From: Malacoraja senta
Lineage: Eukaryota
DNA: 64,000 nucleotides
Assembly (NCBI GenBank): GCA_038087875.1
Contig: CM075987.1
Span: forward strand, 22,880,001-22,944,000
Reading direction: 5' to 3'
Shown: one piece after another, positions 30,080 to 63,838 of the stretch
Position numbering within the stretch: the first letter of the stretch is position 1
Layout: every line of letters starts with the position of its first letter
Notes under the pieces: generated by a model
What the model was told of the DNA's origin: nothing
Database searches by the model: none
The model's input: the letters and a program-made list of their open reading frames with translations, nothing else
Made by a program: the position numbers and the translations under genes

Positions 30080-33000
30080 CAGCCTCCTGCTCCCAGCCCC
30101 TTGCTCTCTTCCCAGCCCCCTGTCCCCTGCTCCTTTCCCAGCCCCAACTCCCTGCCCCCAGCTCCCTGCCCCGTTCCCAGCTCCCTGCCCCCTGTTCCCA
30201 GCTCCCTGCCCCAGCTCCCTGCCCCCTGCTCCCTGACCCAGCTCCCTGCCCCCAGCTCCCTGCCCCCAGCTCCCTGTCCCCTGCTCCCTGCCCCCAGCTC
30301 CCTGACCCCTACTCCCTGTTCCCTGACCCCTGCTCCCAGCTCCCTGCCCCCTGCTCCCAGCTCCCTGCCCCCTACTCCCAGCTCCCTGACCCCTACTCCC
30401 TGTTCCCTGACCCCTGCTCCCAGCTCCCTGCCCCCCTACTCCCAGCTCCCTGCCCCCTGCTCCCCAGCTCCCTGCCCCCTGCTCCCAGCTCCCTGCCCCC
30501 TACTCCCAGCTCCCTGCCCCCTACTCCCAGCTCCTGCCCCCTACTCCCAGCTCCCTGCCCCCTACTCCCAGCTCCCTGCCCTGCTCCCAGCTCCCTGCCC
30601 CCTGCTCCCAGCTCCCTGCCCCCTACTCCCAGCTCCCTGCCTCCTACTCCCAGCTCCCTGCCCCCTACTCCCAGCTCCCTGCCCCCAGCTCCCTGCCCCC
30701 TGCTCCCAGCTCCCTGCCCCCTGCTCCCAGCTCCCTGCCCCCTACTCCCAGCTCCCTGCCCCCTACTCCCAGCTCCCTGCCCCCTACTCCCAGCTCCCTG
30801 CCCCCTACTCCCAGCTCCCTGCTCCCTGCCCCCTACTCCCAGCTCCCTGACCCCTGCTCCCAGCTCCCTGCCCCTGCTCCCAGCTCCCTGCCCCCTACTC
30901 CCAGCTCCCTGCCCCCTACTCCCAGCTCCCTGCCCCCTACTCCCAGCTCCCTGCCCCCTACTCCCAGCTCCCTGCCCCCTACTCCCAGCTCCCTGCCCCC
31001 TACTCCCAGCTCCCTGCCCCCTACTCCCAGCTCCCTGACCCCTGCTCCCAGCTCCCTGACCCCTGCTCCCAGCTCCCTGCCCCCTGCTCCCTGCCCCTGC
31101 TCCCAGCTCCCTGCCCCCTGCTCCCAGCTCCCTGCCCCCTGCTCCCAGCCCCCTACTCCCAGCTCCCTGCCCCCTACTCCCAGCTCCCTGCCCCCTACTC
31201 CCAGCTCCCTGCCCCCTACTCCCAGCTCCCTGCCCCCTGCTCCCAGCTCCCTGCCCCCTACTCCCAGCTCCCTGCCCCCTACTCCCAGCTCCCTGCCCCC
31301 TACTCCCAGCTCCCTGCCCCCTACTCCCAGCTCCCTGCCCCCTACTCCCAGCTCCCTGCCCCCTGCTCCCAGCTCCCTGCCCCCCACTCCCAGCTCCCTG
31401 CCCCCTACTCCCAGCTCCCTGCCCCCTACTCCCAGCTCCCTGCCCCCTACTCCCAGCCCCCTACTCCCAGCTCCCTGCCCCCTGCTCCCAGCTCCCTGCC
31501 CCCTACTCCCAGCTCCCTGCCCCCTACTCCCAGCTCCCTGCCCCCTACTCCCAGCTCCCTGCCCCCTACTCCCAGCTCCCTGCCCCCTACTCCCAGCTCC
31601 CTGCCCCCTACTCCCAGCTCCCTGCCCCCTACTCCCAGCTCCCTGCCCCCTACTCCCAGCCCCCTACTCCCAGCTCCCTGCCCCCTACTCCCAGCCCCCT
31701 ACTCCCAGCTCCCTGCCCCCTACTCCCAGCTCCCTGCCCCCTACTCCCAGCTCCCTACTCCCAGCTCCCTGCCCCTACTCCCAGCCCCCTACTCCCAGCT
31801 CCCTGCCCCCTACTCCCAGCTCCCTGCCCCCTACTCCCAGCCCCCTACTCCCAGCTCCCTGCCCCCTACTCCCAGCCCCCTACTCCCAGCTCCCTGCCCC
31901 CTACTCCCAGCTCCCTGCCCCCTACTCCCTGCTCCCTGCCCCCTACTCCCAGCTCCCTGCCCCCTACTCCCAGCCCCCTACTCCCAGCTCCCTGCCCCCT
32001 ACTCCCAGCCCCCTACTCCCAGCTCCCTGCCCCCTACTCCCAGCTCCCTGCCCCCTACTCCCAGCTCCCTGCCCCCTACTCCCAGCTCCCTGCCCCCTAC
32101 TCCCAGCCCCCTACTCCCAGCTCCCTGCCCCCTACTCCCAGCTCCCTGCCCCCTACTCCCAGCCCCCTACTCCCAGCTCCCTGCCCCCTACTCCCAGCCC
32201 CCTACTCCCAGCTCCCTGCCCCCTACTCCCAGCCCCCTACTCCCAGCTCCCTGCCCCCTACTCCCAGCTCCCTGCCCCCTACTCCCAGCTCCCTGCCCCC
32301 TACTCCCAGCTCCCTGCCCCCTACTCCCAGCTCCCTGACCCTGCTCCCAGCTCCCTGCCCCCTACTCCAGCTCCCTGACCCCTGCTCCCAGCTCCCTGCC
32401 CCCTACTCCCGCCCCCTACTCCCTGCCCCTACTCCCAGCTCCCTGACCCCTGCTCCCAGCTCCCTGCCCCCTACTACCTGCCCCCTACTCCCAGCTCCCT
32501 GCCCCCTACTACCTGACCCCTGCTCCCAGCTCCCTGCCCCCTACTACCAGCCCCCTACTCCCTGCCCCCTACTCCCAGCTCCCTGACCCCTGCTCCCAGC
32601 TCCCTGCCCCCTACTCCCAGCCCCCTACTCCCAGCCCCCTACTCCCAGCTCCCTGCCCCCTACTCCCAGCCCCCTACTCCCAGCTCCCTGCCCCCTACTC
32701 CCAGCTCCCTACTCCCAGCTCCCTGCCCCCTACTCCCAGCCCCCTACTCCCAGCCCCCTACTCCCAGCTCCCTGCCCCCTACTCCCAGCCCCCTACTCCC
32801 AGCTCCCTGCCCCCTACTCCCAGCCCCCTACTCCCAGCCCCCTACTCCCAGCTCCCTGCCCCCTACTCCCAGCCCCCTACTCCCAGCCCCCTACTCCCAG
32901 CCCCCTACTCCCAGCTCCCTGCCCCCCTACTCCCAGCCCCCTACTCCCAGCTCCCTGCCCCCTACTCCCAGCCCCCTACTCCCAGCCCCCTACTCCCAGC

Positions 33001-35082
33001 TCCTGCCCCCTACTCCCAGCCCCCTACTCCCAGCCCCCTACTCCCAGCTCCCTGCCCCCTACTCCAGCTCCCTACTCCCAGCTCCCTGCCCCTACTCCCA
33101 GCCCCCTACTCCCAGCCCCCTACTCCCAGCTCCCTGCCCCCTACTCCCAGCCCCCTACTCCCAGCTCCCTGCCCCCTACTCCCAGCTCCCTACTCCCAGC
33201 TCCCTGCCCCCTACTCCCAGCCCCCTACTCCCAGCCCCCTACTCCCAGCTCCCTGCCCCCTACTCCCAGCCCCCTACTCCCAGCTCCCTGCCCCCTACTC
33301 CCAGCCCCCTACTCCCAGCCCCCTACTCCCAGCCCCCTACTCCCAGCCCCCTACTCCCAGCTCCCTGCCCCCTACTCCCAGCCCCCTACTCCCAGCTCCC
33401 TGCCCCCTACTCCCAGCTCCCTGCCCCCTACTTCCAGCTCCCTGCCCCCTACTCCCAGCCCCCTACTCCCAGCCCCCTACTCCCAGCTCCCTGCCCCCTA
33501 CTCCCAGCCCCCTGCCCCCTACTCCCAGCTCCCTACTCCCAGCTCCCTGCCCCCTACTCCCAGCCCCCTACTCCCAGCCCCCTACTCCCAGCTCCCTGCC
33601 CCCTACTCCCAGCCCCCTACTCCCAGCTCCCTGCCCCCTACTCCCAGCTCCCTACTCCCAGCTCCCTGCCCCCTACTCCCAGCTCCCTACTCCCAGCTCC
33701 CTGCCCCCTACTCCCAGCTCCCTACTCCCAGCCCCCTACTCCCTACTCCCAGCCCCCTACTCCCAGCCCCCTACTCCCAGCCCCCTACTCCCAGCCCCCT
33801 ACTCCCAGCTCCCTGCCCCCTACTCCCAGCCCCCTACTCCCAGCTCCCTGCCCCCTACTCCCAGCTCCCTACTCCCAGCTCCCTGCCCCCTACTCCCAGC
33901 CCCCTACTCCCAGCTCCCTGCCCCCTACTCCCAGCTCCCTACTCCCAGCTCCCTGCCCCTACTCCCAGCCCCCTACTCCCAGCCCCCTACTCCCAGCTCC
34001 CTACTCCCAGCTCCCTGCCCCCTACTCCCAGCCCCCTACTCACAGCCCCTACTCCCAGCCCCCTACTCCCAGCCCCCTACTCCCAGCTCCCTGCCCCCTA
34101 CTCCCAGCCCCCTACTCCCTGCCCCCTACTCCCTACTCCCTGACCCCTACTCCCAGCCCCCTACTCCAGCTCCCTACTCCCAGCTCCCTACTCCCAGCCC
34201 CCTACTCCCAGCCCCCTACTCCCAGCCCCCTACTCCCTACTCCCAGCCCCCTACTCCCAGCCCCCTACTCCCAGCCCCCTACTCCCAGCTCCCTGCCCCC
34301 TACTCCCAGCCCCCTACTCCCCAGCTCCCTGCCCCCTACTCCCAGCTCCCTACTCCCAGCTCCCTGCCCCCTACTCCCAGCCCCCTACTCCCAGCTCCCT
34401 GCCCCCTACTCCCAGCTCCCTACTCCCAGCTCCCTGCCCCCTACTCCCAGCCCCCTACTCCCAGCCCCCTACTCCCAGCTCCCTACTCCCAGCTCCCTGC
34501 CCCCTACTCCCAGCCCCCTACTCCCTGCCCCCTACTCCCAGCCCCCTACTCCCAGCTCCCTGCCCCCTACTCCCAGCTCCCTGCCCCTACTCCAGCTCCC
34601 TGCCCCTGCCCCCTACTCCCAGCTCCCTGCCCCCTACTCCCAGCTCCCTGCCCCCTACTCCCAGCTCCCTGCCCCCTGCCCCCTACTCCCAGCTCCCTGC
34701 CCCCTACTCCCAGCTCCCTGCCCCCTGCCCCCTACTCCCAGCTCCCTGCCCCCTCTCCCAGCTCCCTACTCCCAGCTCCCTGCCCCCTACTCCCTGCCCC
34801 CTACTCCCAGCCCCCTACTCCCAGCCCCCTACTCCCTGCCCCCCCCCTACTCCCAGCCCCCTACTCCCAGCCCCCTACTCCCTGCCCCCTACTCCCTGCC
34901 CCCTACTCCCTGCCCCCTACTCCCAGCCCCCTACTCCCTGCCCCCTACTCCCTGCCCCCTACTCCCAGCCCCCTACTCCCAGCCCCTACTCCCAGCCCCC
35001 TACTCCCTGCCCCCTACTCCCTGCCCCCTACTCCCAGCCCCTACTCCCAGCCCCCCTACTCCCAGCCCCCTACTCCCAGCTC
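30080..35082. repeat. ~5-kb C-rich minisatellite built from 7-mers (cccccta / ctcccag / ctccctg); main units 21 and 14 bp
   Basis: Directly visible tandem array running into the gap. Confidence 0.97.
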
Positions 35083-35282
35083 NNNNNNNNNNNNNNNNNN
35101 NNNNNNNNNNNNNNNNNNNNNNNNNNNNNNNNNNNNNNNNNNNNNNNNNNNNNNNNNNNNNNNNNNNNNNNNNNNNNNNNNNNNNNNNNNNNNNNNNNNN
35201 NNNNNNNNNNNNNNNNNNNNNNNNNNNNNNNNNNNNNNNNNNNNNNNNNNNNNNNNNNNNNNNNNNNNNNNNNNNNNNNNNN
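35083..35282. other. Assembly gap (200 N)
   Basis: Run of exactly 200 N, probably a placeholder of unknown true size. Confidence 0.99.
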
Positions 35283-36526
35283 GCTCGGCCCTTCGAGCCA
35301 GCACCGCCATTCAATATGTTCATGGCTGATCATCCAGAATCAGTAGTTAGACAAAATTGCTGGAGAAACTCAGCGGGTGCGGCAGCATCTCTGGAGCGGA
35401 GGAAATAGGCAACGTTTCGGGCCGAAACCCTTGGGTTTCGGCCCGAAACGTTGCCTATTTCCTTAAGGGTTATTTCCTTAAGGGTTGCCTATTCCCTTAA
35501 GGGTTTAGGCCCAAAACGTTGCCTATTTCCTTCGCTCCATAGATGCTGCCTCACCCGCTGAGTTTCTCCAGCAATTTTGTCTACCTTCGATTTTCCAGCA
35601 TCAGCATTTTCCTTCTTGAACATCCAGAATCAGTAACCCCGTTCCTGCTTTCTCCCATATCCCTTGATTCCGTTAGCCCTAAGAGCTATACATATCTAAC
35701 TCTCTCTTGAATACATCCAATGAATCGGCCTCCTGCGGCAGAGAATTCCACATATTCACAACTCCCTGGGTGAAAAAGGCTTTTCCTCATCTCGGTCCTG
35801 AACGGCCTACCCCTTATTCTTAAACTGTGACCCCCCTGGTTCTGGACTCCCCCAACATAGGCAGGTCATGGTCTATGGGCCAGGAGTCATGCTGAGGCAA
35901 GGATGTTGTCGTCACAAGGCCGGGTGGACAACTGCGGTCGCGCCCATGGTCCATGGAGACACTTTTGGTGGGATTTTGAAGGAGAGCTGAAGAGTGAGAG
36001 GGACATTCCTCAACGAACACTCCACGTATGTTGAACCAGTCGTAAAGGTTGGAGGCTCAAATTGGTTGGTCTGTACCGAGGTAGCTTTGTGTTGTCAATC
36101 GGGCGGTACCAAAGAAACGCTGATACTTTCTTTAACTTGTGTTCCTGTCTGTCCTCACCTCAAAAAAAAAGATTCCACATTGGTACCTTGCGAAAGGCCA
36201 TCTCCCTGACTTTTTGGGCTATTATCTTTAATCTTTCAATCAACAGCACTAAAGTCGATGGCCATCTCCATTTATCTCATCACTGTTTCTATGAGTTTCC
36301 AAGGCACAATTCTCTGCCTGATTTTGATATGTGACCATTATTTGTGGCACTGTGGCTCAGATGCTAGAGTTGCTGCTTTTACAGCGCCAGAGACCCTGGT
36401 TTGATCCTGACCACAGAGTTTGTACGTTCTCCCTGTGACCGCGTGGGTTTTCTCCAGTTTCCTCCCGCGCTCCAAAGACGTACTTGGAGGTTTGTAGGTT
36501 AATGGTCTTCGGTAAAAATTGTGTTA

Positions 36527-50100: not shown

Positions 50101-53100
50101 TTTAATCAACAATAAAGTTACGATGCAAGCTCTACCTCTGCCTGTTATTTCTATTAACTGTGATAAAGATCGCTAGTTTTGTCATTAGCTGAGCAGATGC
50201 TGCATTAGAATAGGCAGCAATGCTACATGAAAACCAGAGGCCAGAGTATACATTATTGATTAAACCTGCTGTAAAATTAATGAGCTGTGCACAACAATAT
50301 GCTAATGCATATGAGGAGAGTAACTGTGTGAGAATCAGGAGAAGCAAATTCTAAATCCAAAGATCAACAGTCTACCACATTGTATAATGCAGCAACAGCC
50401 CGTACAAAGAACATTTATTGTCACGTGTACCGAGGTACAGTGGAAAGCTTTTGTTGCGTGCTATCCAGTCAGTGGAACGCCAACACATGATTACAATCGA
50501 TCCATTTACAGTGTACAGATACATGATAATGGAATAAAGTTTAGTGCAAGGTAAAGCCAGCAAAGTCTGATCAAGTATAGTCTGCTGATCACCAAAGAGG
50601 TAGATAGTGGTTCAGCACTGCTCTCTGGATGTGGTAGGATGATTCGGTTGCCTGTTAACAGCTGAGAAGAAGCTGTCCCTGAATCTGGAGGTGTGTGTTT
50701 TCACACTTCTGTACCTTTTGCCTGATGGGAGAGTGGACAAGAGGGAGTGGGACAAGAGGGAGTGGGACATGAGGGTGCGACTCGACCTTGATTATGCTTC
50801 TGGCCTCGCCGAATGGGATTTTTATCTGACCCACAGCTTGTTGAACAAATCTCAGGGGCAGTACTGAGGGAGTGCCACACTGCCAGAGGGGCAGTACCAA
50901 AGACCCTATAGCGAGCAAGATAGACCACTCGTCGAAAAAGACGTAGTACGGTCACGGGCAGATTCACGGGTCATTTTCAGCCCCATTTCCGTAACCGGCT
51001 TCCGTCTCCGCACCAAAGATCCCATAGGATACTAGTGCGGAGACGGAAGCCGGTTACGGAAACATCCTCGTAAAAATAAAAGTTATTTGGGAAAAATCTT
51101 CTCCTCATTTTCAGAATTTTAATTTATTAACACAAACTGTTCCCCCGCAACGTTGATTACACTGCGGGTCGGGTCGGGTCGGGTCGGGTTACGGAAATGG
51201 ATGAAAAAAAGGCCCACGTTCCGCTCCGTTGCGTACTACACGTCAGCCCATTGCATTTAGAAGGAGTGGTCTATCTTGCTTGCTACAGGATCTTTGGGCA
51301 GTACTGAGGGAGTGCCCCACTGTCAGAGGGGCAGTACTGAGGAAGGGCCACACTGTTAGTGGGCATTAGGAAGGGCTGTCATCTTCGAAGTGCTGCATGG
51401 GGCTTCCACATCTCATGTTATTCTGTTGAATGTACCATTTATAGAGTTGTATCTGGACTCTCCAAATATTCTTAAAATGACCCATAATTTGTTTCCTCAG
51501 GTGTACCGGAAATATGGGAAGCAATATGGAGATGTTGTGAATCCCAACATCACTTACAGCCTCTACGTGCCCAAGCGAGGTTTTTACTATGACTGGCTCC
51601 CAGTTACTGGGGCATGTTCAACAACTTGTGGGCCAGGTCAGAACTCCATTAAAATTCATATTTAAGGACTTATTATTACACAGATATTAAGCAGAAATGA
51701 CAACAATTATTGTGTGGGAGGGAACTGCTGATGCTGGTTTAAACCGCATATAGACACAAAATGCTGGAGTAACTCAGCGGGACAGGCAGCATCTCTGGAG
51801 AGACGGAATGGGTGATGTTTCGGGTCGAGACACTTCTTCAGACTGAAAGCCCAGATTCCCCACGCCTCCAATTCTTCCACTCCAGCAACAACCACAAACA
51901 TTTTATTTATTTCCTCGAATGTTCTTCTCTCCTCCATGTGATGTGGTGTCTTGAGTGTGGTGCAGTGGTAGCGTACCATCTAACCAACCCGATCTCCCGC
52001 TTGCCCAGCGCTTCAACTCCCCATCCCATTCTGAATCTGACCTTTCTGTCCTGGGCCTCCTCCATTGCCAGAGTGAGGCCCAGCGTAAATTGGAGGAACA
52101 ACACCTCATATTTCGCTTGGGTAGTTTACACTCCAGCGGTATGAACATTGACTTCTCTAATTTCAGGTAGTCCTTGCTTTCTCCCTCCTTCTTCCCAGCT
52201 CTCCCACATAGCCCACTGTCTCCGCCTCTTCCTTTCTTTTTCCCGCCCCTCCCCGACATCAGTCTGAAGAAAGGTCTCGACCCGAATCGTCGCCTACTAC
52301 TTTTCTCCATAGATGCTGCTTCTCCAGCATTTTTTGTCTACAACAGGTATAGTCAGGTTTGCTCAGAGTACACTTTACTCAATTGTACAGAGCAGGTACC
52401 TATTCAACGAGATAAGGATTCAACCACAAAAGAACACAAAGTCAGGCAGAATCTCTGGAGAAAATGGATTGGTGACGTTTTGGCTCAAGACCCGAGACGT
52501 CATCTATTCATGTTCTCCACAAATGCTCAGTGTGTGGAGTTTGCACGTTCTCCCAGTGACCGCTTGGATTTTCTCCGGATGCTCCGGTTTCCTCCCATAT
52601 TCCAGACGTGCAGGTTTGTAGGTTAATTGGCTTCTGTAAATTGTCCCTAGTGTGTTGGATACAACTAGTGTAAGGGTGATCACTGGTTGGCATGGACTCG
52701 GTAGGCCAAAGGGCCTGTTTCCATGCTATATCTCTAAAACTAAAACTACAACTCCTTTGCAGTTCTTTGTTTCTACAAAGATTAAACCTTACATACAGTA
52801 ATGTCACTATATGTCACTCGTGAGCCTGTACAAATGTCAACCTTCCTAAGTGACCAAATATTTGAAGATCTGAGTGACTGTGGACATTATGGTTTGTTGT
52901 ACACTGCTGCAGGATCTACAAGCGTCTATTACGTGTGCAGAGACCAGAGCTCTGAGCAAGAGGTGGCACTACAGCACTGCTCCCAGTCAGTGAGGCCGGC
53001 AGATAGGTTGGAAGCTTGTAACATCGCATCGTGCCTCCCTTGGTAAGGCAGGGAAATCTCCCCAAAACAAAGTGCTATTTTCTCTCCCGTCACTTGAATG

Positions 53101-53284: not shown

Positions 53285-56200
53285 ACCCTCACTGGCGTAC
53301 GGGCCCCACACACACACACACACACTGACCCTCACTGGGGTACGGGTCCCACACACACTGACCCTCACTGGGGTACGGGCCCCACACACACACACACACA
53401 CACACTGACCCTCACTGGGGTACGGGCCCCACACACACACTGACCTTAACCTTCCCTGCTCATAGAAGTCCAGACTTTCTCATTAATCTCAAAGCCCTAT
53501 AATTGTTGCCGTGGCAACTCAGTTGCATGAAGAAATTCTCCTGCTCTTCCTCAACTTTCTGAACTATCGAGATAAATGTTCCTGTTGTGGCCCTTTGCCG
53601 TGAGTGGGATATGCTGTGCAGTTGCAGAACCTCTCGCTACTCTTATTCCGGACCCACAGGTGGGAGGTGGGCGAGTTTGGTGCGTGCAACGCCTCATGTG
53701 GCGGTGGACAGCGGGAAAGGGACGTTCGTTGCCTGAAGCGGGAGGCACTGGAGACGCAGTGGACCTCTGACACCGACTGTGCTGACTCTCCCAGACCCCA
53801 GTCAATGGAAAGGTGCAACGAACACGGCTGCCCGGCCAGGTACATGATTCACACCTGTAAACTGTGGCGGGGAGGCACAGCAAAGACACCGTGACATTCA
53901 CAGTGTACAGATACAGGATAAAGGGAATAAGGGTTGGTGCAAGATAAAGGAAGGCAAGACCCCATCAAAGATATTGTATTGTATATCTTTATTGTCATTT
54001 CCTGAGTATTCGCATACCCAGAGGAAACAAAAAAACGTTCCTCAACCAGTGTCCATTTCAGTGTGCAGTAAAAAATAAATAGAAGTAAAAATACATATAT
54101 CATGAACAAATTAATACTCTACTCTACTAAACATCAACAGGCGTTCCGATCGGCAGCGGCACGACAGTGGCTCTGCTGCAGTGTGTCCAGGTTGGTGGTT
54201 GGTGCACGATACTTTGGCAGGGGACAAAGTCCGTTTATCAGTCTTATAACCTGCGGGAAGAAGCTGAGGAGCATCCTGCTGGTTTTGCACCTAATGCTCC
54301 GGTACCTCTTCCCAGATGGCTGGATGGAGAATATGTGATGGGATGGGTGGTAGGCGTCTTTGATGATGGAGATGGCTCTGCTGATACATCTCTTCCTGTA
54401 TATGTCCAGCAGGAAAGGGAGTGGAGCACCAATAATCCTGCTGGCGGTCTTCACAATCCTGTCTAGTTGGTGCCGTTCGTGCGCCTTGCAGCTCCCGAAC
54501 CAGGAAGTGATGCCGTAGGTTAATGTGCTCTCGATAGTCCGCGGGTCTCCAATGAAGTAGATAGTGGTGCAGGGATTGTTCTCTAGTTGTTGGGGTAGGA
54601 TGGGCCAAAGAAGACTCTGGCCGTAGGGTTTGAGGAAGCAGTCTGTTCAATGAGCTGCTGAGCTGTTCTTACTCCTTGGTCACTGCAGGTGGAATGTTTG
54701 GGAGACGAGCGCCTGCTCTGCATCGTGTGGAGTTGGAGCTGTTGAGCGGTCAGTTACCTGTGTCCAGTTCATCAACGGGGCGGATGTGGAAGTGAACCAG
54801 ACACGGTGTCCGGCAGTAACCCAGCCCCTGGACATCACTCCATGCATTGTCAGCATCTGCCCCTTCGTGCTGGATCAAGTACCCTGGTCTGAGGTAAATG
54901 CCCAGCAACTCCCTGTGTGAGTGAATGGCTGCATAACCCCGTGTCCATTTTGTACAAGCATGTATTTCCCTCGGAGCATCCAATACCTTCAAGATGACCG
55001 GACAGGTTGGTTCAAAGTAGCACATGGGTTTCATAAGATCATAAGTGATAGGAGCCATTCGGCCCATCAAGTCTACTCCGCCATTCATGGCTGATCCATC
55101 TCTCCTAACCCTATTCTCCTGCCTTCTCCCCACAACCTCTGACACCCGTGGGCTTACATTTTTAACTACAGATTATTAAAGCTAAGAGCCTCACGGCTCC
55201 AAGACCTGGTTTCGCATTGAAAGTTTTACAGGTAATGGTGTTCAAAATTAAGGTGAAACTTTCATCACTGGCATGTGAATGGGAAACCAGGCTGCACTGT
55301 AACGGGAAAATAGTCAGAGGGAATTAGAGGGGAAAATATATTACGGAATTTTCTTTTTCAATTGCATTGCTCTAGCTGCTGGCATTTCAAAAATATTTAT
55401 TGAAAAGGTATTTGATAAAGGATCAAGTAACACGGAGGCATGGGGAAAGAGCAGAGGACACAGGACTAATTGCAAAGCAGTTTTAAAGAGCTGGCATATG
55501 AAGGATGGGCTGAATCATCTCCTGCACTGTGTCATTGTGTTAAATAAGGTGATGTCCTTAGCAATGGAGTTTAAAAAAAAACTTTTTCTATTTCAGGTGT
55601 CCAATCAAGTGAGGAAGGAGATTGGAAAAGTCATGAATGTCACAGCCTTGGCAAGAATGCCAACACAGAGGGGCGGCTATCTCTGGGTTCCTATAAAGGG
55701 ACCCTGTTCTGTTAGCTGTGGCCAAGGTGAGTGTGCGGTGATGTTCAGAGTTCAAGTAATTGGTTTTGTTTGATTCATGCACCTGGTATTTAAACACTCA
55801 AGTGTTTTTCTTGGGGTAGAGGAGGCGCAGGGATTGAACTGTTGTTGAACTAACTAGTAGAAAAAACTTTTCTTTTTTTTAGTTTTAGTTTTAGAGATAC
55901 AACGCAGAAACAGGCCCTTCGGCCCACTGAGTCCGTGCCAACCAGCGATCCCCACACACAAACACTATCCTACACCTACTAGGGACAATTGACAATTTTA
56001 CCAAGACCATATAACCTACAAACCTGTACGTCTTTGGAGTGTGAGAGGAAACCAAATTAAAGTACATTTATTTATATAGCACTTTTCAATCAATTTCAAT
56101 CAAAGAAGCCAAAGTGCTTTACAGAGAAAATGATCCATATAAATAATAAAAAGAGGTAGAAAAAAAATGACACAACACACTATAAGAGATTCAACACGAA

Positions 56201-59200
56201 CATCCCCCCACAGCAGAATCGACACTCTCCACTGTGATGGAAGGCACTAAAACGTCCAAGAGCACCCAGAGAAAACCCACGCGGTCACAGGGAGAGCGTA
56301 CAAATTCTGTACCGAGAGCACCCGTAGTCAGGATTGAACCCGGCTCTACCGCTGCGTCACCGCGCCGCCCACGTCCACATGTGTTGTAAGGAATAGACTT
56401 TATCCCAATAGTTCATTCATAATTAAAGTCTGAAGGACTATCCATGTTCTTCAGGGATGCTGCTTGACCCGTTGACTTACTCCAGCACTTAGTGTCTTTT
56501 TGTTGTAAACCAGCATCTGCAGTTCCTTGTTTCTCCTCTCTAGAAGGCATAGTTCCACAGGGAGTCTGATATCCCCATGAAAAAACTCGAATAATGAACT
56601 GAAATCATCCAAAGCTGCTTCAGAGAAGCATAAATGTATCAACATTTGACGTCAAGCCATGTGTTGAGAAATTAGGATAATGACCAAAGGCTTGGTCAAG
56701 GAAGTATGGAGCAATGTAAGGGAGGTAAGGGAGGAAAGAGAGGTGTTTATTGAAGGAATTCTGATGTGCGAGCACTGTGTGGGTCAGCAACTTGTTTGAC
56801 CACAAGACATCGCAGGAAATTCATTCACACCTCTCCCTCTTTCAATCACGAACAACCATAACCTTATGCAGGAATCGATGAAGAGTAATTAAAATGGAGA
56901 GATAACCCGAGGCAGTCAGGTCAATTGGCAATCAACTCACTACGGTTAGACCAGATAATGCATCTGGGTCTTCCTGATTGATCTCTGTGGCTGCTCTTTC
57001 ATCAGACTCTGCACCGAACAAGGAGACACCAGAGGGAGCTCCTCTTCCTTATTTTGATTGTGTTTTATCTGATCGAGAGTCAAGAGTGTTCAACTGTCTT
57101 ATGCACTGGGACTGGAACGCTCAAATGCTTACTTGCTGCAACTATACAGGGCCATTAAATGCAACAACACAACAGATAAATATCTGATAACTTATCAGTT
57201 GTTCTGGGTAAAATAGTGCAAGCCAATGTATGTAGTGCAATCTTAATGCAAAAATCCACAATAGTTTGAGCTGTGGTAGGGTGGTGGTTATGGTTATGCA
57301 GGGGGGGGGGGGGGTTGATGGGAAGAAGCTGTTTTTGAACCTGGATGTAATGGTTCCCGGACTCCCGATGGTAGCTACAAGATGAGAGCATGGCCAGGGT
57401 AGTGTAGTCATAGATGATATTAGTTGCCTTACTGAAGCAGTGTGTCGTGTAGATCCCTTTGATGGTGGGGAGGTTCAATGCCTGAAGTGGATCAGGCAAT
57501 GACCAAAACTGAACATCTTACTCCAAATTGCACAAGATCAGTCCTATATGATAACTGTTTTTGGTTCACAGGGGTATCAGAGATCAGGTACGTGTGCATC
57601 AATGTTGAGACCAAGAAGGAATCACAACAAGAATATTGTGATCAGAGCTTCCAACCCCAGCTCCATTACATGGCATGTGCCAGTAAAACATGTCCCCCAT
57701 GGTAAGTCAGTTCAATATCATCAATTGACACCATTACTCTGATAACACTCCTAGTTTTTTTTATATCAAGTTCTGAAACATCGCAGGGAAGCATGGCTAT
57801 AGATCAGCTCCCACAGAAGGCAGGGTCTTCGTGCATCCTCTCGTTTCAGTATCAAACAATCCCAGGGAATATGCAACATAAGTCAGATACAAAGAACCCT
57901 TCAAAGCCACACTACAATTACACACTGTAATGGTAAGATGACACCAAGACTCATACAGCATGGAAACAGGCCCCTCGGCCCAGCTTACCCACGCCGACCA
58001 ACACGCCCCATCTACACTGGTCCAACTTGCCTGCTTTTGGCACATATCCCTCCAAACCTCTCCTTTCCATGTACCTGTCCAAACGTCTCTTCAACGTTGC
58101 AAAAGTACCTGCCTCAACTATCATCACCCTTTGTGTAAAAAGGTTAACTCTCAGCTTCCAATTAAAACGTTTCCCCCCCCTCACCTGAAACCTGTGTCCT
58201 CTGGTTCTCAATTCCCCAACTCTGGGCAAGAGACTCTGTGCGTTTACTCGATGTTCCTCTCATGATTTTGTACACCTCAAAATGATCACCCCTCATCCTC
58301 CTGTACTCCATGGAATAAAGCCCCAGCCTGCTTTACCACTGCCTATAGCTCACTCCCTTGAGTCCTGGCAGCATCCTGGTAAATCTTCCCTGAACCCTTT
58401 CAAGCTTGACAACATCTTTCCTACAACATGGTTCCCAAAAAGAGTGTTGTGTGTCGTTTTGATCTTCTTACCTAAGAAAGGAAATGCTTGCCATGGAGGG
58501 AAAACAAAGGCCTTTCGCCAAACCTTTCCTGGAATGTTGTGACTGTGGTGAGTGGAAGGATTCGTTCAACCAAGCCAACTCTAAGTTCAATTAAATTCAA
58601 CTCTAATTCATGAGATGGAATCTCATTGAAATGTACAAAATTCTAACAGGGCTAGACACACCAGATGTTTTTCCTGTCTACAGTGAATTTAGAACCAAGA
58701 GTTACAGTCTCAGAATATAGGGCAAGACTTTTAGGATAGAGATGATGAGAAATGCCATCACACTGATGGTGGCGAACTTATGCATTTCTCTATCACAGAA
58801 GACAACTATAACAATCTAAAATACATTTGGACAGTTACATGAATAGGAAACATTTCGAGGGGTTTGGGCCAAAAGCGGGCAGGTGGGACTAGTTTAGATG
58901 GGCATCTCAGTTGGCATGGACAAGTTGGGCCGAAGAGCCTGTTTCTGTACTGTACGACCCTATGACTCTAAGGCCCCTGTCCCACTTAGGTGATTTTTTT
59001 GGCGACTAGGCTGTTTTCAGAGGCTGACGCCTGTATGGTCGTGAGTCGTCTCCTCAAGCCGCCTAAAGAGTCGTAACGTTTTTCTGCTCGCTGCTGGATT
59101 TTGAAATGTTCAAAACCTTTCGGCGACTGTGGGCTTGACGTAGCTTGTCTTCTCCTGTCGTAGGTGCTGTCGCAGATTGTTGCCAGGGGTGATGCAGGTT

Positions 59201-62200
59201 GTCACCAGGTGACGTTGGTTGTCGCCGGGTGCTGACTTCGGTGAATTCCATTGGCGACTACCTACGTCAACTGGCGAGAGGTACCGGCGACTGAATTGTC
59301 TTCAGTTGTCGCCGACAGGGTATTTGTTGTTGTAGCTTGTCCCGGGTGGACGCAGGTTGACTTCGGTTGTCGTATGTTGTCGCCTGTGTGGTCGTAGGTT
59401 GTCGTCCTAAGTCGCAGCGATTGGGCCGCCGGTTGTCGGTAGCTTGCCGTAGCTTGACGTTGACTAGGTGGTAGGTTGTCGTAGGGGGGGGTCCAGTCGC
59501 TGCTTTTTCGGCAACCTGCTACGACTGTGACAGTCGCCGAAAAAAATCGCCTAAGTGGGACAGTGAGGGCAAAGTTGTTGAAATATATTTAAAAAGGGGG
59601 AGGCAGGTTTCTTGACACAAAAGGTATCAATGGATATATTCATAAATTGGGATTATCATATTGGAATGAAGGATCAGTGGCACAGTGGTAAAGTTGCTGC
59701 CTTACAGCACCAGAGACCCTGGTTCAATCCTGACTATAGGCACTGTCCGTACGGAGTTTGTATGTTCTCCCTGTGATCGCGTGGGTTTTCTCCGGGTGCT
59801 CCAGTTTCCTTCCACATCTCAAAGACGTGCAGATTTGTAGGTGAATTGGCTTCTATAAATTGTCCCTAGTGTGTAGGATAAAATTAGTGTACAGATGATC
59901 TATCGCTGGTCGTTGCAGACTCAGTAGGCCGAAGGGCCTGTTTCCATGCTGTATCTCTAAAAACTAAACTAAACTAAAACGATGTACTGAATGAAGGCGC
60001 AAAGTTAAATGGTCAGATGGGGTACTCCTGCTCTTGTTTTCAATGTTCAAAAATGCCACAAGTTAGGTAGAATAAACGCTCTTTCTTGGATCTGGAGAGA
60101 AGGCAGGTACGGGATACTGAGTTGGATGATCAGCCATGATCATATTGAATGGCGGTGCAGGCTCGAAGGGCCGAATGGCCTACTCCTGCACCTATTTTCT
60201 ATGTATCTATTTTCTATCTCCTGTCAAACGCATCCAGAAAGTAAAGGTCCAGGATTGGTAAAAGTGACCTTGAAGTTATGAAATAGCCACAAAATCTCAA
60301 GTGGTTTCCTAACATTCCTCAGGGAAGGAAATTGGATCTCCTTTGTGGGACTGATTGTATCTGCAGCCCTCCATCATTATCTCTGACTCCTAAATACCAT
60401 CTGATGTGACCCAGCAAGGCTCTCCGTTTCTCTTCAGAGATTGCATAGAAGAATGACACATTAAAAATCTGCACCAGCAATCTACATGCCTGTGAAGTTG
60501 AGCAGGGTGAGCGGATATTGAGTAAGACCTGATACCCTGGCTCAGTCCCACCAGGCCCCAGACCCTGGGGGACCCAACACAGACAGTGGAGCACATAGTC
60601 ACCAGTTGCCCCAAACACCGGCCACCGAATGGTGAACAAGGTCTGATTGACCTGGACGATGACACGTTGGCCTGGCTCGCCTCAACAGAGCTGCAGGTCT
60701 AAAAGACATATGACAGAAGAAGAAGTCCCACTCTCCTTAACCCAGGGTCCTTGATGTTAAGAGAGAGTTGCATAGAACTCTTAGGGCTAACGGGATCAAG
60801 GGATATGGGGAGAAAGCAGGAACGGACTACTGATTGTGGATAATCAGCCATTATCGTATTGTATGGCGGTGCTGCCTCGAAGGGCCGAATGACCTATTTT
60901 GTATGTTTCTGTTTATATGTTACTTTGTACTTTCTGTCATTTACTCTTTTAAAGGTGGGAAGTCCATGAGTATGGGTCCTGCAATGTAAGTTGCGGGGGT
61001 GGAGTACACGAGAGGGAAGTGCACTGCATAAAGAAAACGCGGTATTTGTACCAAAGGGTTCCTCCCTTGGAATGTGGCAACGCTCCAAGACCAATCTCCA
61101 TGGAGATGTGCAATTCTGATCCCTGTCCTGTAAGGTAACAACCCTTCATCCACGGATAAACATTTGTGTGCTTTCTCTCTAAGTGAGATTTCCTGTTATT
61201 ATTAACAAATGGACTTAAACATGAAGGCTAAGAATGGCCAACCAAAGACCATTCCTTCAGTATCCAGACACAGTTCTCCAATATCTAATGTTCTGAACAA
61301 AAAAAGACACAAAGTGCTGGAGTAACTGCAGGGCACGCGGTGGCACAGCGGTAGAGTTGCTGCCTTACAGTGCCAGAGTCCCGAGTTCGATCCTGACTAC
61401 GGGTGCTGTCTGTACGGAGTTCGTACATTCTCCCCGTGACCACGTGGGTTTTCTCCGGGTGCTCCGGTTTCCTCCCACATTCAAAAGACGTACAGTTTTG
61501 TAGGTTGATTGGCTTCGGTAAGAATTGTAAATTGTCCCTAGTGTGTAGGATAATGTTAGTGTACGGGCGATCGCCGGTTGGCGTGGACTTATTGAGCTAA
61601 AGGGCCTGTCTAATAATGTTTTAATATTAATGTTTAATGTTTTATATGTCATCCCTATCTGTCACTGTATGTCATATTGTCATATTGTCACTTGCGGGTG
61701 GGGCACCGAGGCAAATTCCTTGTATGTGAATACTTGGCCAATAAACTTATTCATACTTCCCGTGCTGTATCGCTAAACTAAACTAAACGGACCAGGCAAC
61801 ATCTCTGGAGAACATGTACAGGTGACATTTTGGTTTTGGGTCGGGACCTTCTTCAGCCTGACCTGAAAGGTCACCCATCCTTTTTCTCCAGAGATGTTGC
61901 CTGACCCGATGTGTTACTCCTGTACTTTGTATCTATCTTCAATTATTTAAAGTAGTTGCCACACGCCACCGTCTGATAGTTTTTCACTTGAACTATACTG
62001 TTTATTATACAGATTGATGTTGTTGCTTTTGTATGTCCATCCAACAATCTATACCCTGTCTGTTTTCTATCATGCGCTCTGTCTGAGTTTGGTTGGTTGG
62101 GCCACCGCTTGCCTCGTGCTGGCGTCTGACCGATTACACTGTTAAGTCTCCCATGACTCTCCCTAAACCTTTTCTGAAGATGGCGGTACAAGTCTGAATC

Positions 62201-63838
62201 GTGCAGCATGCCATGCGGAGGAGGGGTGAGGCGCAGGCTCCTGTATTGCACAAAGGTACTACCTGACCGAGAAGAGCTGACATCAGACCACGAATGTCTT
62301 CACTTGAACCGCCCCGAGGACCTTGAATTTTGCAATCTCCATCCTTGCCCGCCAAGGTTGGTGAACTGTGTACACTTTAACTTACCTTTTTCTTTGAAGA
62401 CTCTCATTCTCGCTAGGTTATAAATGCAGTGAACAATACAACACGGGAGCAGGCCCTTCAGCCCACTGTATCTGTGCCAACCGTCATCCCATCCTCATTC
62501 CATCTGCCCTTCCATGGTCTCTACCCTTCTACTCCCTGCCTGTCCATATGCTTCTCTAAATGCATTTCAAATGTTACTCCTGTGTTTAGCTTCTGCCACC
62601 TCCCCTTGTAATGCATTCCAAGCACCTACCGCCATTTTGATGTGATAAACCTGACTTCCCAAATCTCCTTCTCCGCTTCCCCTTCTCTCTTTAAACCTAT
62701 GTCCTTGAGTATTTGACATCTCCACCCTGGGGGGGGGGGGGGGAAGATTCTAACCATCTCCCTCTCATGATTTTATATACTTCTATCAGGTCGCCCCTCA
62801 GCTGCAGAGAAAGCTGGGCGGCACGGTGGCGCAGCGGTAGAGTTGCTGCCTTACAGCACCAGAGACCCGTGTTCGATCCTGATTATAGGTGCTGTCTGTA
62901 CGGAGTTTATACGTGTGGGTTTTCTCTGGGTGCTCCGGATTTCCCCCACACTCCAAAGACATATGTAGAGGTTTGTAGGTTAAATGGCTTGGTATAATTG
63001 TAAATTGGCCCTAGTGTGTGTGTGATAGTGTAAGTGTGCGTGGATCGCTGGTCGGCGCGGACTCGGTGGGACAAAGGGCCTGTTTCTGCGCTGTATCTAA
63101 AAAAAAAACAATCCAAATGTGTCCAATCTCTCGTTAAAGCGAATACCCTCCAATCCAGGAAACATCCCGTTGAACCTCTCTCTTCTGCATCCTCTCCAAA
63201 GCCTCCGCATCCTTCCTGCAGCGTAGTGACCAGAAATGCACACAATACTCCAAACCAAAGTTTTACACAGCTGCAGCATGAACTGAGTTGAAGGGAGACT
63301 AAATGTCATTGAGTGAGGAGTTCCACAGGCATTGATTCTAACAGCGATACAACATCCCTGAGCAATCACTGTCCCGTCACAACAAGCAAACCTCAGCCTG
63401 ATACGGAAGCTCCTGGTTAAAAGGAGTCTGGACAGCAATGCTCTCTGATCAAGAGGCTGGTTTCAACTAAGCCCTGCATGATGGACCAGAAATGTAATGT
63501 TACTTTGTGTATCAGAGCGATGGGTTGGTTAAGGGAGTTAGGAGGCACAGGTCTCGAAGTGCAACTATGAGATTCATAGTGAGAGGCAGAGGGCTGGAGT
63601 GGGGACGCTTTTTAAATCTGTGATTCTGGCTGACAGGTGGCAGGTTTCGGAGCCGGGTCGGTGCTCGGTGCTCTGTGGGGCCGGTCTGGCGGAGAGGAGG
63701 GTGATCTGCGTGCAGCTTCACAACGGGACGGATGTGGAGGTGAAGAGAGGCCGCTGCTCGGGACAGGAGGAGCCGATGACACTGGTCCCGTGCGTGGTCA
63801 GCTGCCCCTTTGGTTGGACTCCCCAGAACTGGTCCGAG
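37188..63838 (+). CDS. ADAMTS13: ADAMTS13 (von Willebrand factor-cleaving protease), partial: 16 exons, 2346 nt, from the disintegrin end through TSP1-1, Cys-rich, spacer and distal TSP1 repeats
   Basis: All exons have AG/GT boundaries and join in frame. Motifs [60 protein letters not shown] and [10 protein letters not shown] match recalled human ADAMTS13. The first nine exon sizes (152, 64, 127, 149, 121, 81, 182, 136, 130) match recalled human exons 10-18. Divergent from REXO4, as in human. Confidence 0.96.
38014..38077 (+). CDS. ADAMTS13: ADAMTS13 exon (exon 11 equivalent; [22 protein letters not shown])
   Basis: Acceptor tttttctag, donor gtaagg; 64 nt, phase 2-0. Confidence 0.94.
38301..38865 (+). 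mobile_element. CR1 LINE 3' fragment nested in a minus-strand CR1 (38228-38300 and 38868-39228)
   Basis: [12 protein letters not shown]...TRGHDL...WNELP; the host CR1 tail is split at tgatca. Confidence 0.82.
39588..39914. mobile_element. PIF/Harbinger-like MITE
   Basis: TIR ccctgtcccacggtacgagttcatt / aatgaactcgtaccgtgggacaggg; flanks taa/taa. Confidence 0.73.
40388..40514 (+). CDS. ADAMTS13: ADAMTS13 exon (exon 12 equivalent; Cys-rich, [14 protein letters not shown]...[12 protein letters not shown])
   Basis: Acceptor ctttgtgcag, donor gtaaaa; 127 nt. Confidence 0.94.
41228..41485. repeat. CT-rich polypyrimidine microsatellite
   Basis: (ctct/ccct)n array. Confidence 0.95.
41490..41888 (-). 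mobile_element. CR1 3' fragment
   Basis: [16 protein letters not shown] peptide. Confidence 0.8.
41948..42096 (+). CDS. ADAMTS13: ADAMTS13 exon (exon 13 equivalent; Cys-rich with RGDS)
   Basis: [30 protein letters not shown]...LCVKGNCR; acceptor ttgccag, donor gtaatg; 149 nt. Confidence 0.95.
42662..43352. mobile_element. PIF/Harbinger-like element with an internal 10-bp tandem array (ccttcgatta)n at ~42895-43060
   Basis: TIR agggcctgtcccactatggc / gccatagtgggacaggccct. Confidence 0.72.
43489..43609 (+). CDS. ADAMTS13: ADAMTS13 exon (exon 14 equivalent; [27 protein letters not shown]...)
   Basis: Acceptor ttttgctcgtag, donor gtaact; 121 nt. Confidence 0.95.
44070..44480 (-). mobile_element. 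Rex1-derived 3' fragment (similar at 50410-50800, 48675-48800 and 57100-57480)
   Basis: LPSG...[20 protein letters not shown]. Confidence 0.72.
45628..46145. repeat. 26/28-bp G-rich minisatellite (gtgtgggtcagtgtgggatgggttta)n
   Basis: Directly visible tandem array. Confidence 0.95.
46432..46780 (+). mobile_element. RTE (BovB/Expander-like) 5'-UTR-derived element; reverse copy at ~12720-12885
   Basis: ccttgtcgtggtg...ctggtagggtcacccatggc...ccagac...aagacctcaacgg in both copies, resembling the recalled RTE 5' end. Confidence 0.62.
47120..47200 (+). CDS. ADAMTS13: ADAMTS13 exon (exon 15 equivalent; spacer, [27 protein letters not shown])
   Basis: Acceptor gatttgcag, donor gtaagt; 81 nt. Confidence 0.94.
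47861..48000 (+). mobile_element. ~140-bp short element sharing the RTE-X 3' tail (other copies at 24825-24952 + and 42326-42466 -)
   Basis: Ends in caactttaggctgtgcacgccatacgcaagaagaagaag, matching the tail of the LINE at 681-725; TSD agaggggtgg(g) at 47851 and 48001. Confidence 0.75.
49081..49262 (+). CDS. ADAMTS13: ADAMTS13 exon (exon 16 equivalent; spacer)
   Basis: [12 protein letters not shown]...[17 protein letters not shown]...IEVQ; acceptor tttattgcag, donor gtgagg; 182 nt. Confidence 0.95.
50898..51296. mobile_element. Non-autonomous DNA transposon with 8-bp TSD (hAT- or P-type termini CA...TG)
   Basis: ~33-bp TIR caaagaccctatagcgagcaagatagaccactc; TSD ggcagtac at 50890-50897 and 51297-51304. 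Confidence 0.82.
51501..51636 (+). CDS. ADAMTS13: ADAMTS13 exon (exon 17 equivalent; spacer end plus start of TSP1-2)
   Basis: [19 protein letters not shown]...[14 protein letters not shown]; acceptor tttcctcag, donor gtcaga; 136 nt. Confidence 0.95.
51975..52345 (+). mobile_element. Penelope-like element 3' end (GIY-YIG C-terminus plus pLTR with hammerhead-like core)
   Basis: Peptide [45 protein letters not shown], followed by ctgaagaaaggtctcgacccgaatcgtc. Confidence 0.78.
52913..53042 (+). CDS. ADAMTS13: ADAMTS13 exon (exon 18 equivalent; TSP1-2 second half)
   Basis: [12 protein letters not shown]...[11 protein letters not shown]; acceptor ctgcag, donor gtaagg; 130 nt. Confidence 0.93.
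53146..53446. repeat. Compound VNTR: ctgaccctcactggggtacgggcccca followed by a variable (ca)n
   Basis: About six copies with different CA-run lengths. Confidence 0.93.
53660..53839 (+). CDS. ADAMTS13: ADAMTS13 exon, TSP1-3
   Basis: [24 protein letters not shown]...CNEHGCPAR; acceptor cccacag, donor gtacat; 180 nt, phase 2-2. Confidence 0.93.
53972..54535 (-). mobile_element. Rex1/Babar LINE 3' fragment
   Basis: KTASRIIG...HPSHHIF...[15 protein letters not shown]...[11 protein letters not shown]; tail tgacaataaa. Confidence 0.82.
54689..54893 (+). CDS. ADAMTS13: ADAMTS13 exon, TSP1-4 position (T4/T7-type repeat)
   Basis: [35 protein letters not shown]...[17 protein letters not shown]; acceptor cactgcag, donor gtaaat; 205 nt, phase 2-0. 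Confidence 0.92.
55597..55726 (+). CDS. ADAMTS13: ADAMTS13 exon, linker plus first half of TSP1-5-type repeat
   Basis: VSNQVRKE...[16 protein letters not shown]; acceptor ctatttcag, donor gtgagt; 130 nt, phase 0-1. Confidence 0.92.
57572..57701 (+). CDS. ADAMTS13: ADAMTS13 exon, second half of TSP1-5-type repeat
   Basis: [23 protein letters not shown]...CASKTCPPW; acceptor gttcacag, donor gtaagt; 130 nt, phase 1-2. Confidence 0.92.
57948..58430 (-). mobile_element. CR1 3' fragment
   Basis: RTRGHRF...FTQRV peptide and CR1 tail. Confidence 0.75.
58972..59563. mobile_element. PIF/Harbinger-like element
   Basis: TIR ctgtcccacttaggtgattttttt / aaaaaaatcgcctaagtgggacag. Confidence 0.7.
60500..60725 (+). 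mobile_element. RTE-X-like LINE extreme 3' end
   Basis: [11 protein letters not shown]...[11 protein letters not shown] followed by agaagaagaag. Confidence 0.6.
60955..61134 (+). CDS. ADAMTS13: ADAMTS13 exon, additional TSP1-3-like repeat (no counterpart at this position in human)
   Basis: [24 protein letters not shown]...[21 protein letters not shown]; acceptor ctcttttaaag, donor gtaaca; 180 nt, phase 2-2, six Cys. Confidence 0.9.
62180..62356 (+). CDS. ADAMTS13: ADAMTS13 exon, TSP1-6-type repeat
   Basis: [23 protein letters not shown]...CNLHPCPPR, resembling human WQYK...RRILYC; acceptor tttctgaag, donor gttggt; 177 nt. Confidence 0.92.
62817..63098 (+). mobile_element. HE1/V-SINE-like SINE
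   Basis: ggcacggtggcgcagcggtagagttgctgcc...gttcgatcc. Confidence 0.85.
63637..63838 (+). CDS. ADAMTS13: ADAMTS13 exon, T4/T7-type TSP1 repeat; gene continues beyond the window
   Basis: [35 protein letters not shown]...[16 protein letters not shown]; acceptor ctgacag, donor gttagt; 202 nt, phase 2-0. Confidence 0.92.

What the first reader, a model, noticed from the sequence alone, without database searches (positions are those of the whole stretch)
60955..61134. ADAMTS13 carries an extra TSP1 repeat: a TSP1-3-like exon between the T5- and T6-type repeats
Seen: an intact 180-nt phase 2-2 exon with six Cys and a CxxSCG motif. By hand alignment it is 30/60 aa identical, without gaps, to the TSP1-3 exon at 53660-53839, which has the same length and phase. 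Each of the two follows a 130-nt phase 1-2 exon ending in C-x-P-W (52913-53042 and 57572-57701). Known: human goes directly from T5 to T6 (WQYK...RRILYC), and the T6-type exon here comes only afterwards (62180). The distal TSP1 and CUB domains mediate autoinhibition, and distal repeat number varies among vertebrates. Inference: this lineage has at least one more distal repeat than human, from exon duplication or from retention of an ancestral T2/5-T3-T6-T4/7 module.
Basis: partly seen in the sequence, partly recalled or inferred. Interest (0 to 1): 0.72.

Follow-up and report, generated by a model that had tools for sequence, protein, structure and literature searches.

The report
Ancestral ADAMTS13 repeat that humans lost
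This skate's ADAMTS13 blood-clotting protease really has one more thrombospondin repeat than the human enzyme, but so do sharks, coelacanth, amphibians, many reptiles and many mammals, so it is most likely an ordinary ancient exon that humans lost rather than a skate novelty.

Summary
The exon (60955-61134, 180 nt, phase 2-2, six Cys, 30/60 identical to T3) is real and in frame in a skate ADAMTS13. Close skates have 8 distal TSP1 repeats against 7 in human, and a skate transcript-type contig reads through T5-X-T6. It is not lineage-specific. A repeat in the same slot is in 87 of 120 vertebrate ADAMTS13 models (a sample biased towards it), including marmoset. Human, teleost, bird and monotreme models lack it. 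It is probably the 'T6a' of Muia 2019 (recalled; not read). This scan noted the same-slot exon earlier in a camelid. Bichirs, salamanders and caecilians have nine repeats, (T2 T3 Y T4)-linker-(T5 X T6 T7)-T8, and the offset-4 pairing ranks 1 of 105 in 7 of 7 proteins. Exon phases repeat, and the T4-T5 hinge exon resembles the spacer-end exon. Trees exclude neither shared ancestry with tetrapod X nor a chondrichthyan copy of T3. The likely role is a dispensable structural unit in the autoinhibitory hairpin. The exon is known; the cassette history may be less so.

The parts
51501..51636 (+). Exon: last strand of the spacer domain plus first half of TSP1-2 (phase 0-1); start of module 1
52913..53042 (+). 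Exon: second half of TSP1-2 (130 nt, phase 1-2)
53660..53839 (+). Exon: TSP1-3 (180 nt, phase 2-2), the module-1 paralogue of the finding
54689..54893 (+). Exon: TSP1-4 plus a W-S-E tail like the start of TSP1-8 (205 nt, phase 2-0); end of module 1
55597..55726 (+). Exon: T4-T5 hinge linker (resembles the spacer end) plus first half of TSP1-5 (130 nt, phase 0-1); start of module 2
57572..57701 (+). Exon: second half of TSP1-5 (130 nt, phase 1-2)
60955..61134 (+). The finding: T3-like TSP1 exon 'X' between T5 and T6 (180 nt, phase 2-2; probably T6a of the literature, recalled)
62180..62356 (+). Exon: TSP1-6 (177 nt, phase 2-2), orthologue of human T6
63637..63838 (+). Exon: TSP1-7 plus first residues of TSP1-8 (202 nt, phase 2-0); end of module 2

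Best explanation
The exon codes for a normal TSP1 repeat of skate ADAMTS13 and is one member of an old internal duplication. Shown: it is intact, conserved in elasmobranch models and read in frame in a skate transcript-type contig. Nine-repeat vertebrate ADAMTS13 proteins pair as T2/T5, T3/X, Y/T6 and T4/T7. Inferred: a phase 0-0 cassette of exons (spacer end+A, B, C, D+start of T8) was tandemly duplicated before or near the origin of jawed vertebrates, giving (T2 T3 Y T4)-hinge-(T5 X T6 T7)-T8. The inner exons are symmetric (phase 2-2), so each can be dropped without a frameshift. Elasmobranchs kept X and lack Y; human lacks both; sturgeons kept Y and lost X; many rodents kept X and lost T6. 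Inferred function, from human and pigeon work seen through reviews: X is a disulfide-bonded, probably O-fucosylated spacing unit in the return arm of the T2-T8 hairpin that brings T8-CUB1/2 back to the spacer domain. It lies in the T3-T6 stretch that can be deleted without losing allosteric control, so it probably adjusts reach, stability or glycosylation rather than carrying an essential contact.
For: Intact exon and frame. All 6 hits to the exon peptide are elasmobranch ADAMTS13 models, 70-90% identical. P0126, an 832-aa ORF on a 3271-nt Logan contig, runs T5-X-T6 in frame; those exons span over 12 kb here, so it is most likely a spliced assembly from a related skate. The same slot is filled in 87 of 120 listed proteins and in bichir and reedfish. 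The offset-4 pairing ranks 1 of 105 in 7 of 7 nine-repeat proteins, and T3/X, T2/T5 and T4/T7 are mutual best partners in 9 of 9 elasmobranch proteins. The exon phase series repeats in the window, and the linker resembles the spacer end (z 4.3, 3 of 5000 shuffles). Elasmobranch X is a supported clade from sevengill shark to skate (98/92). T3 vs X codons are largely saturated (11 of 28 identical), so the copy is old. Elasmobranch X is closer than elasmobranch T3 to lobe-finned X in all 4 groups (38-44% vs 32-36%). Reviews report that T3-T6 are dispensable and T7/T8 essential (passages).
Against: With elasmobranchs left out of training, elasmobranch X scores best with the T3 profile in 9 of 9 proteins (window: 76.0 vs 69.2 for X; the same). 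One tree joins it to chondrichthyan T3 (93/91). An Asn sequon at the CxxSC motif is shared by chondrichthyan X (9 of 10) and T3 (5 of 11) but is in 0 of 18 bony-vertebrate X. All 3 Callorhinchus models lack X. AU tests on 58 columns reject neither origin (orthology p 0.305 and 0.39; sister to elasmobranch T3 p 0.362 and 0.514), and the T2/T5 and T4/T7 trees do not date the duplication. The linker-spacer likeness is strong only in some chondrichthyans and absent in bichir, caecilian and human. No function was tested.
Confidence: 0.8

Rival explanations
1. The slot is old, but the elasmobranch exon itself is a chondrichthyan copy of T3: either a stem-elasmobranch exon duplication into the T5-T6 intron, or an old X overwritten by gene conversion from T3.
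For: Best profile is T3 in 9 of 9 leave-out tests. Grouping with chondrichthyan T3 at 93/91, AU p 0.36-0.51. Shared Asn sequon. No X in 3 of 3 Callorhinchus models.
Against: It needs a loss and then a regain in the same intron that bichir, coelacanth and tetrapods fill. Bichir X is also T3-like (61.5 vs 60.7 bits), so T3-likeness is expected of a slowly evolving X. No intronic similarity flanks T3 and X (one 20-nt hit, E 0.91). The other tree leaves the node open.
Confidence: 0.15
2. The exon is intact in the genome but is a minor alternative or skipped exon, so the main protein has the human count.
For: Inner phase 2-2 exons are missing from some isoform models elsewhere (Narcine X2, Heterodontus X2, Equus, Callithrix). 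No reads from this species were laid.
Against: All 5 members of the skate cluster, including the Logan contig, contain X. Divergence from other skates (53-54/60) is like that of T3 (53-56/60).
Confidence: 0.04
3. X is the true T6 orthologue and the total count equals human.
For: One AU test does not reject X+T6 (p 0.113).
Against: A separate T6 exon follows and falls in the T6 clade with human T6 (99/97). X+T6 is rejected at p 0.036. Relatives have 8 distal repeats.
Confidence: 0.01

Closest known systems
ADAMTS13 RefSeq models of skates: Amblyraja radiata XP_032904626.1, Leucoraja erinacea XP_055516260.1, Rhinoraja longicauda XP_078281988.1
   Same: Same exon in the same slot, 53-54/60 identical; same 8 distal repeats.
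   Different: Only species-level substitutions; the models do not flag the repeat as extra.
'T6a' repeat of Muia et al. 2019, Blood 133:1899 (PMC6484387; text not seen, name and content recalled; reviews seen as passages)
   Same: As recalled: a distal TSP1 repeat next to T6, absent from human and deleted several times in vertebrates, lying in the dispensable T3-T6 stretch. The distribution found here fits.
   Different: Could not check which side of T6 the paper places it, whether elasmobranchs were included, or whether the ninth repeat (Y) and the four-repeat cassette are described.
Same-slot repeat of tetrapods and coelacanth (pig, horse, marmoset, gerbil, frogs; the sixth repeat in several rodents)
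   Same: Same position after T5, same length class, T3 paralogue.
   Different: Only 38-44% identical. The tetrapod form has its own signature and lacks the Asn sequon, and one clade with elasmobranch X is neither shown nor rejected.
Human ADAMTS13 TSP1-3 and TSP1-6
   Same: X is a T3-class repeat with the same Cys spacing, followed by a T6 that groups with human T6.
   Different: Human models have no repeat between T5 and T6.

Membership tests
TSP1 repeat, ADAMTS type (PF19030) | Profile score above the curated cut-off | tested here: met
   52.7 bits vs 23.8
TSP1 repeat, ADAMTS type (PF19030) | N-terminal Trp, six Cys, C-x-x-S/T-C-x-x-G motif (O-fucose consensus, recalled) | tested here: met
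   W1, C9/13/24/40/52/57
ADAMTS13 | Flanking exons match ADAMTS13 T1-Cys-spacer and distal repeats | tested here: met
   tblastn 84-98% identity to P0004 residues 478-1274; the best PDB hit of P0004 is human ADAMTS13, E 1e-240
ADAMTS13 | Metalloprotease and disintegrin exons upstream | tested here: inconclusive
   Residues 1-477 not found in the window; an assembly gap at 35083-35282 lies just upstream of the first exon found
ADAMTS13 | T8 and two CUB domains downstream | not testable with these tools
   The window ends after the T7 exon and no whole genome is held; the region is present in close relatives
Orthologue of bony-vertebrate X (probable T6a) | Position between T5 and T6, T3-class repeat | tested here: met
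Orthologue of bony-vertebrate X (probable T6a) | One clade with bony-vertebrate X | tested here: inconclusive
   Not recovered in the free trees, not rejected (p-AU 0.305 and 0.39)
Orthologue of bony-vertebrate X (probable T6a) | Identity with T6a as defined by Muia 2019 | not testable with these tools
   Paper not in the library; 'ADAMTS13'+'T6a' gave 0 papers
Human-type TSP1-6 | Falls in the T6 clade and is the only repeat between T5 and T7 | tested here: not met
Expressed coding exon | Included in spliced transcripts | tested here: inconclusive
   Met for a related skate by a Logan contig ORF; no reads for this species

The most novel reading that the evidence does not exclude
The ADAMTS13 distal arm arose by one tandem duplication of a four-repeat exon cassette, giving a nine-repeat ancestor still kept by bichirs, salamanders and caecilians. 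The ninth repeat (Y, between T3 and T4) is the T6 paralogue. What is numbered T3 in frogs is really Y (23 of 24 in a leave-out test). The T4-T5 hinge on which the autoinhibitory hairpin folds is a by-product of that duplication, made of a copy of the start of T8 joined to a copy of the last spacer strand, still recognisable in sharks and skates. This history is not in print.
Probability: 0.4. Interest if true: 0.45.

Novelty: already known. Interest (0 to 1): 0.25.

Why it matters
The exon itself matters little: it is in public gene models and sits in a region reported to be dispensable for allosteric control. It does correct the frame of reference. The human 7-repeat arm is a reduced state, and positional numbering misleads across species: the sixth repeat of several rodents is X rather than T6, and the frog third repeat looks like Y. 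That bears on comparing animal models and deletion constructs. Natural arm lengths either side of the hinge run 2+4 (birds), 3+4 (human), 3+5 (skate), 4+4 (sturgeon) and 4+5 (bichir, salamander). This gives a ready panel for testing whether the closed conformation needs any arm-length register.

Tried and rejected
Whole-genome and downstream annotation: no genome is held for this window, so the count after T7 rests on relatives. Sequencing runs: no RNA holder listed (5 runs, 3 only guessed to be RNA, at shares 0.05-0.07); this is not used as evidence. Junction reads for this species were not obtained. Skate-specific recent duplication was rejected: the exon is in all 12 complete elasmobranch models of 13, synonymous sites are largely saturated, and no flanking DNA similarity was found. 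A larger expansion downstream was considered because the T7 exon ends in phase 0 like T4, and rejected: in relatives only T8 follows. A six-frame scan with the nine class profiles found no remnant of Y between T3 and T4, and no further TSP1 exon after position 36000. Single-repeat trees and AU tests could not settle orthology of X, monophyly of Y or the date of the duplication. Of 11 AU tests, only X+T6 fell below 0.05. Exon coordinates for T4, linker+T5a and T7 were off by one and were corrected; the window-level linker score and phase table are discarded. The species-collapsed tally (84 of 113) merged some labels wrongly, so the per-protein tally is used. Literature: 8 searches found no paper with 'T6a' or 'TSP6a' and none on the cassette, but the key paper is outside the library, so absence from print is not shown.

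Full report
Observation. The exon is as described. It spans 60955-61134 (180 nt, AG/GT, phase 2-2) and is open for 60 codons, with Trp1 and six Cys at the same positions as the T3 exon at 53660-53839. It is 30/60 identical to T3 without gaps. It aligns much better to T3 (score 177) than to T6 (107) or to T4 and T7 (about 83), and Pfam calls it TSP1_ADAMTS at 52.7 bits. The nine exons from the spacer end to T7 give a 490-codon frame with no stop, 460/490 identical without gaps to Amblyraja and Leucoraja ADAMTS13 models. The Amblyraja protein's best solved relative is human ADAMTS13 (E 1e-240). The window is therefore a skate-type ADAMTS13 gene.

Count. No genome is held and the window ends after T7, so the total rests on relatives. 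All 5 members of the skate cluster have T2 T3 T4 | T5 X T6 T7 T8, which is 8 distal repeats. Six of 7 human isoform models have 7 and go straight from T5 to T6; the seventh stops after T2. One skate cluster member, P0126, is an 832-aa ORF on a 3271-nt Logan contig that reads through T5-X-T6. Those exons span more than 12 kb in the window, so it is most likely an assembled transcript (inference). No junction reads from this species were obtained.

Distribution. The sample is the best 120 of 720 hits to the skate distal region. It is biased towards proteins that have X and includes some isoform duplicates. In it, 87 proteins carry a repeat classed as X: elasmobranchs 12 of 13 (the miss is a truncated, fused model), holocephalan 0 of 3 (one species), sturgeon 0 of 1, holosteans 0 of 3, teleosts 0 of 14, coelacanth 1 of 1, caecilian 1 of 1, salamander 1 of 1, frogs 24 of 24, turtles 6 of 7, squamates 8 of 8, birds 0 of 4, monotreme 0 of 1, marsupials 5 of 5, placentals 27 of 31, unnamed 2 of 3. 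The profiles in that call included elasmobranch rows, so the elasmobranch label is by position and partly circular. A second search with the marmoset region added 59 proteins. Crocodile and bichir have the slot filled; many placental models lack X or T6; Apodemus, Lemmus, Onychomys, Cavia, Sciurus, bear and two pinnipeds have X where human has T6. Two gibbon models also have X in place of T6. Human is thus a reduced state, and the skate is not unusual.

Origin. Bichir, reedfish, three salamanders and two caecilians have nine distal repeats, with a further repeat Y between T3 and T4. Among the 105 ways to pair the first eight repeats, T2/T5, T3/X, Y/T6, T4/T7 scores best in 7 of 7 such proteins (three related lineages, so not seven independent tests). 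In 9 of 9 eight-repeat elasmobranch proteins, T2/T5, T3/X and T4/T7 are mutual best partners and T6 is left unpaired. The window shows the same at exon level: phases 0-1, 1-2, 2-2, 2-0 and then 0-1, 1-2, 2-2, 2-2, 2-0. The T4 and T7 exons both end in W-S-E, which after T7 is the start of T8. The part of the linker exon before T5 aligns with the part of the spacer-end exon before T2 (z 4.3, 3 of 5000 shuffles). A profile comparison of 10 chondrichthyan pairs gives E 5e-4 but a probability of only 31%, and the likeness is absent in bichir, caecilian and human. Sturgeons keep Y and lack X (7 of 7 full-length models). The second repeat of frogs scores as Y in 23 of 24 proteins with frogs left out of training and groups with amphibian Y (92/88), although an AU test does not reject its being T3-class (p 0.314).

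What is not settled. Trees on 58 columns place T3 and X together (98/98; 99/96) and apart from T6, but they do not resolve the inside of that group. Elasmobranch X is its own clade from sevengill shark to skate (98/92). One tree leaves its sister open and another joins it to chondrichthyan T3 (93/91). AU tests reject neither a clade of all X (p 0.305, 0.39) nor X with elasmobranch T3 (p 0.362, 0.514); X with T6 gives p 0.113 and 0.036. Left out of training, elasmobranch X scores best as T3 in 9 of 9 proteins, and it shares an Asn sequon with chondrichthyan T3 that bony-vertebrate X lacks. Against this, bichir X is just as T3-like, elasmobranch X is closer than elasmobranch T3 to lobe-finned X in all four groups, and an independent origin needs a loss and a regain in the same intron. 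The T2/T5 and T4/T7 trees do not date the duplication. I put shared ancestry at about 0.8 and a chondrichthyan copy or conversion at about 0.15.

How it works (inferred). Reviews describe a hairpin with a hinge between T4 and T5 that lets T8-CUB1/2 dock on the spacer. They report, citing Muia 2019, that T3-T6 can be removed (pigeon-like constructs) while T7 and T8 cannot (PMC8449270 and PMC9826392, passages). PMC12296723 (passages) names the three linkers. X lies in the dispensable stretch, has been lost or swapped for T6 many times, and is a symmetric exon. The likely role is a folded, glycosylated spacing unit. Its retention across elasmobranchs implies some selective value, which was not tested. 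Arm lengths either side of the hinge vary from 2+4 to 4+5 in the models above, which argues against a strict register.

What is known. The exon is in public RefSeq models of three skates and many other vertebrates. From memory, Muia et al. 2019 list a 'T6a' domain among those deleted several times across 264 vertebrates. That paper is not in the library; I saw neither its text nor its supplements, which may already show the cassette and Y. PMC4349717 and PMC11326488 (passages) do not discuss repeat number in ADAMTS13. Eight searches found no paper using 'T6a' or 'TSP6a' or describing the cassette. This scan noted the same-slot exon earlier in a camelid genome (e1-7856119). I confirmed that several rodent models use X as their sixth repeat. 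The one Camelus model I classified showed T6 and no X, so that note's camelid claim is not confirmed here.

Verdict. The exon is already known and ordinary (interest 0.25). The by-product, a nine-repeat ancestor built from a duplicated four-repeat cassette with a hinge derived from spacer and T8 sequence, is well supported as a pattern and may be partly unreported.

Noticed in passing
P0201, P0243, P0018, P0255, P0254, P0016, P0250 (bichir, reedfish, salamanders, caecilians): Nine distal TSP1 repeats, with an additional T6-like repeat (Y) between T3 and T4; the first eight pair at offset four.
   Followed up: yes
window 55597-55726 vs 51501-51636; 54689-54893 vs 63637-63838: The T4-T5 hinge linker looks like the start of T8 joined to the last spacer strand, a by-product of the module duplication; clear in some sharks and rays, faded elsewhere.
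   Followed up: partly
24 frog ADAMTS13 models: The repeat in the T3 position scores as Y in 23 of 24, suggesting frogs lost T3 and kept Y.
   Followed up: partly
P0027, P0152-P0157 (sturgeons): Eight distal repeats by the opposite route to skates: Y kept, X lost.
   Followed up: partly
P0174, P0263 (gibbon); P0096, P0134, P0130, P0127, P0165 (New World monkeys): Some primate models still contain X (in gibbon in place of T6), so the human loss or silencing may be recent; the human intron was not examined.
   Followed up: no
window 30005-35400 and 35083-35282: A roughly 5-kb minisatellite surrounds a 200-N gap. ADAMTS13 residues 1-477 (propeptide, protease, disintegrin) are not found in the window and probably fall in this gap.
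   Followed up: partly
window 24353-24763, minus strand: Exon of an RNase_T/ISG20-family exonuclease, probably REXO4, the neighbour of human ADAMTS13 (name and synteny recalled).
   Followed up: partly
window 60980-60994 and 53685-53699: An N-x-S sequon overlaps the CxxSC O-fucose motif in X (9 of 10 chondrichthyan rows) and T3 (5 of 11), so N- and O-glycosylation may compete there.
   Followed up: partly
P0021 (Scyliorhinus model): The model runs from T5 into a sugar-transporter domain (PF00083); probably a fused gene model.
   Followed up: no
window 6967-9208: LINE-type reverse-transcriptase fragments (zf-RVT, below cut-off).
   Followed up: no
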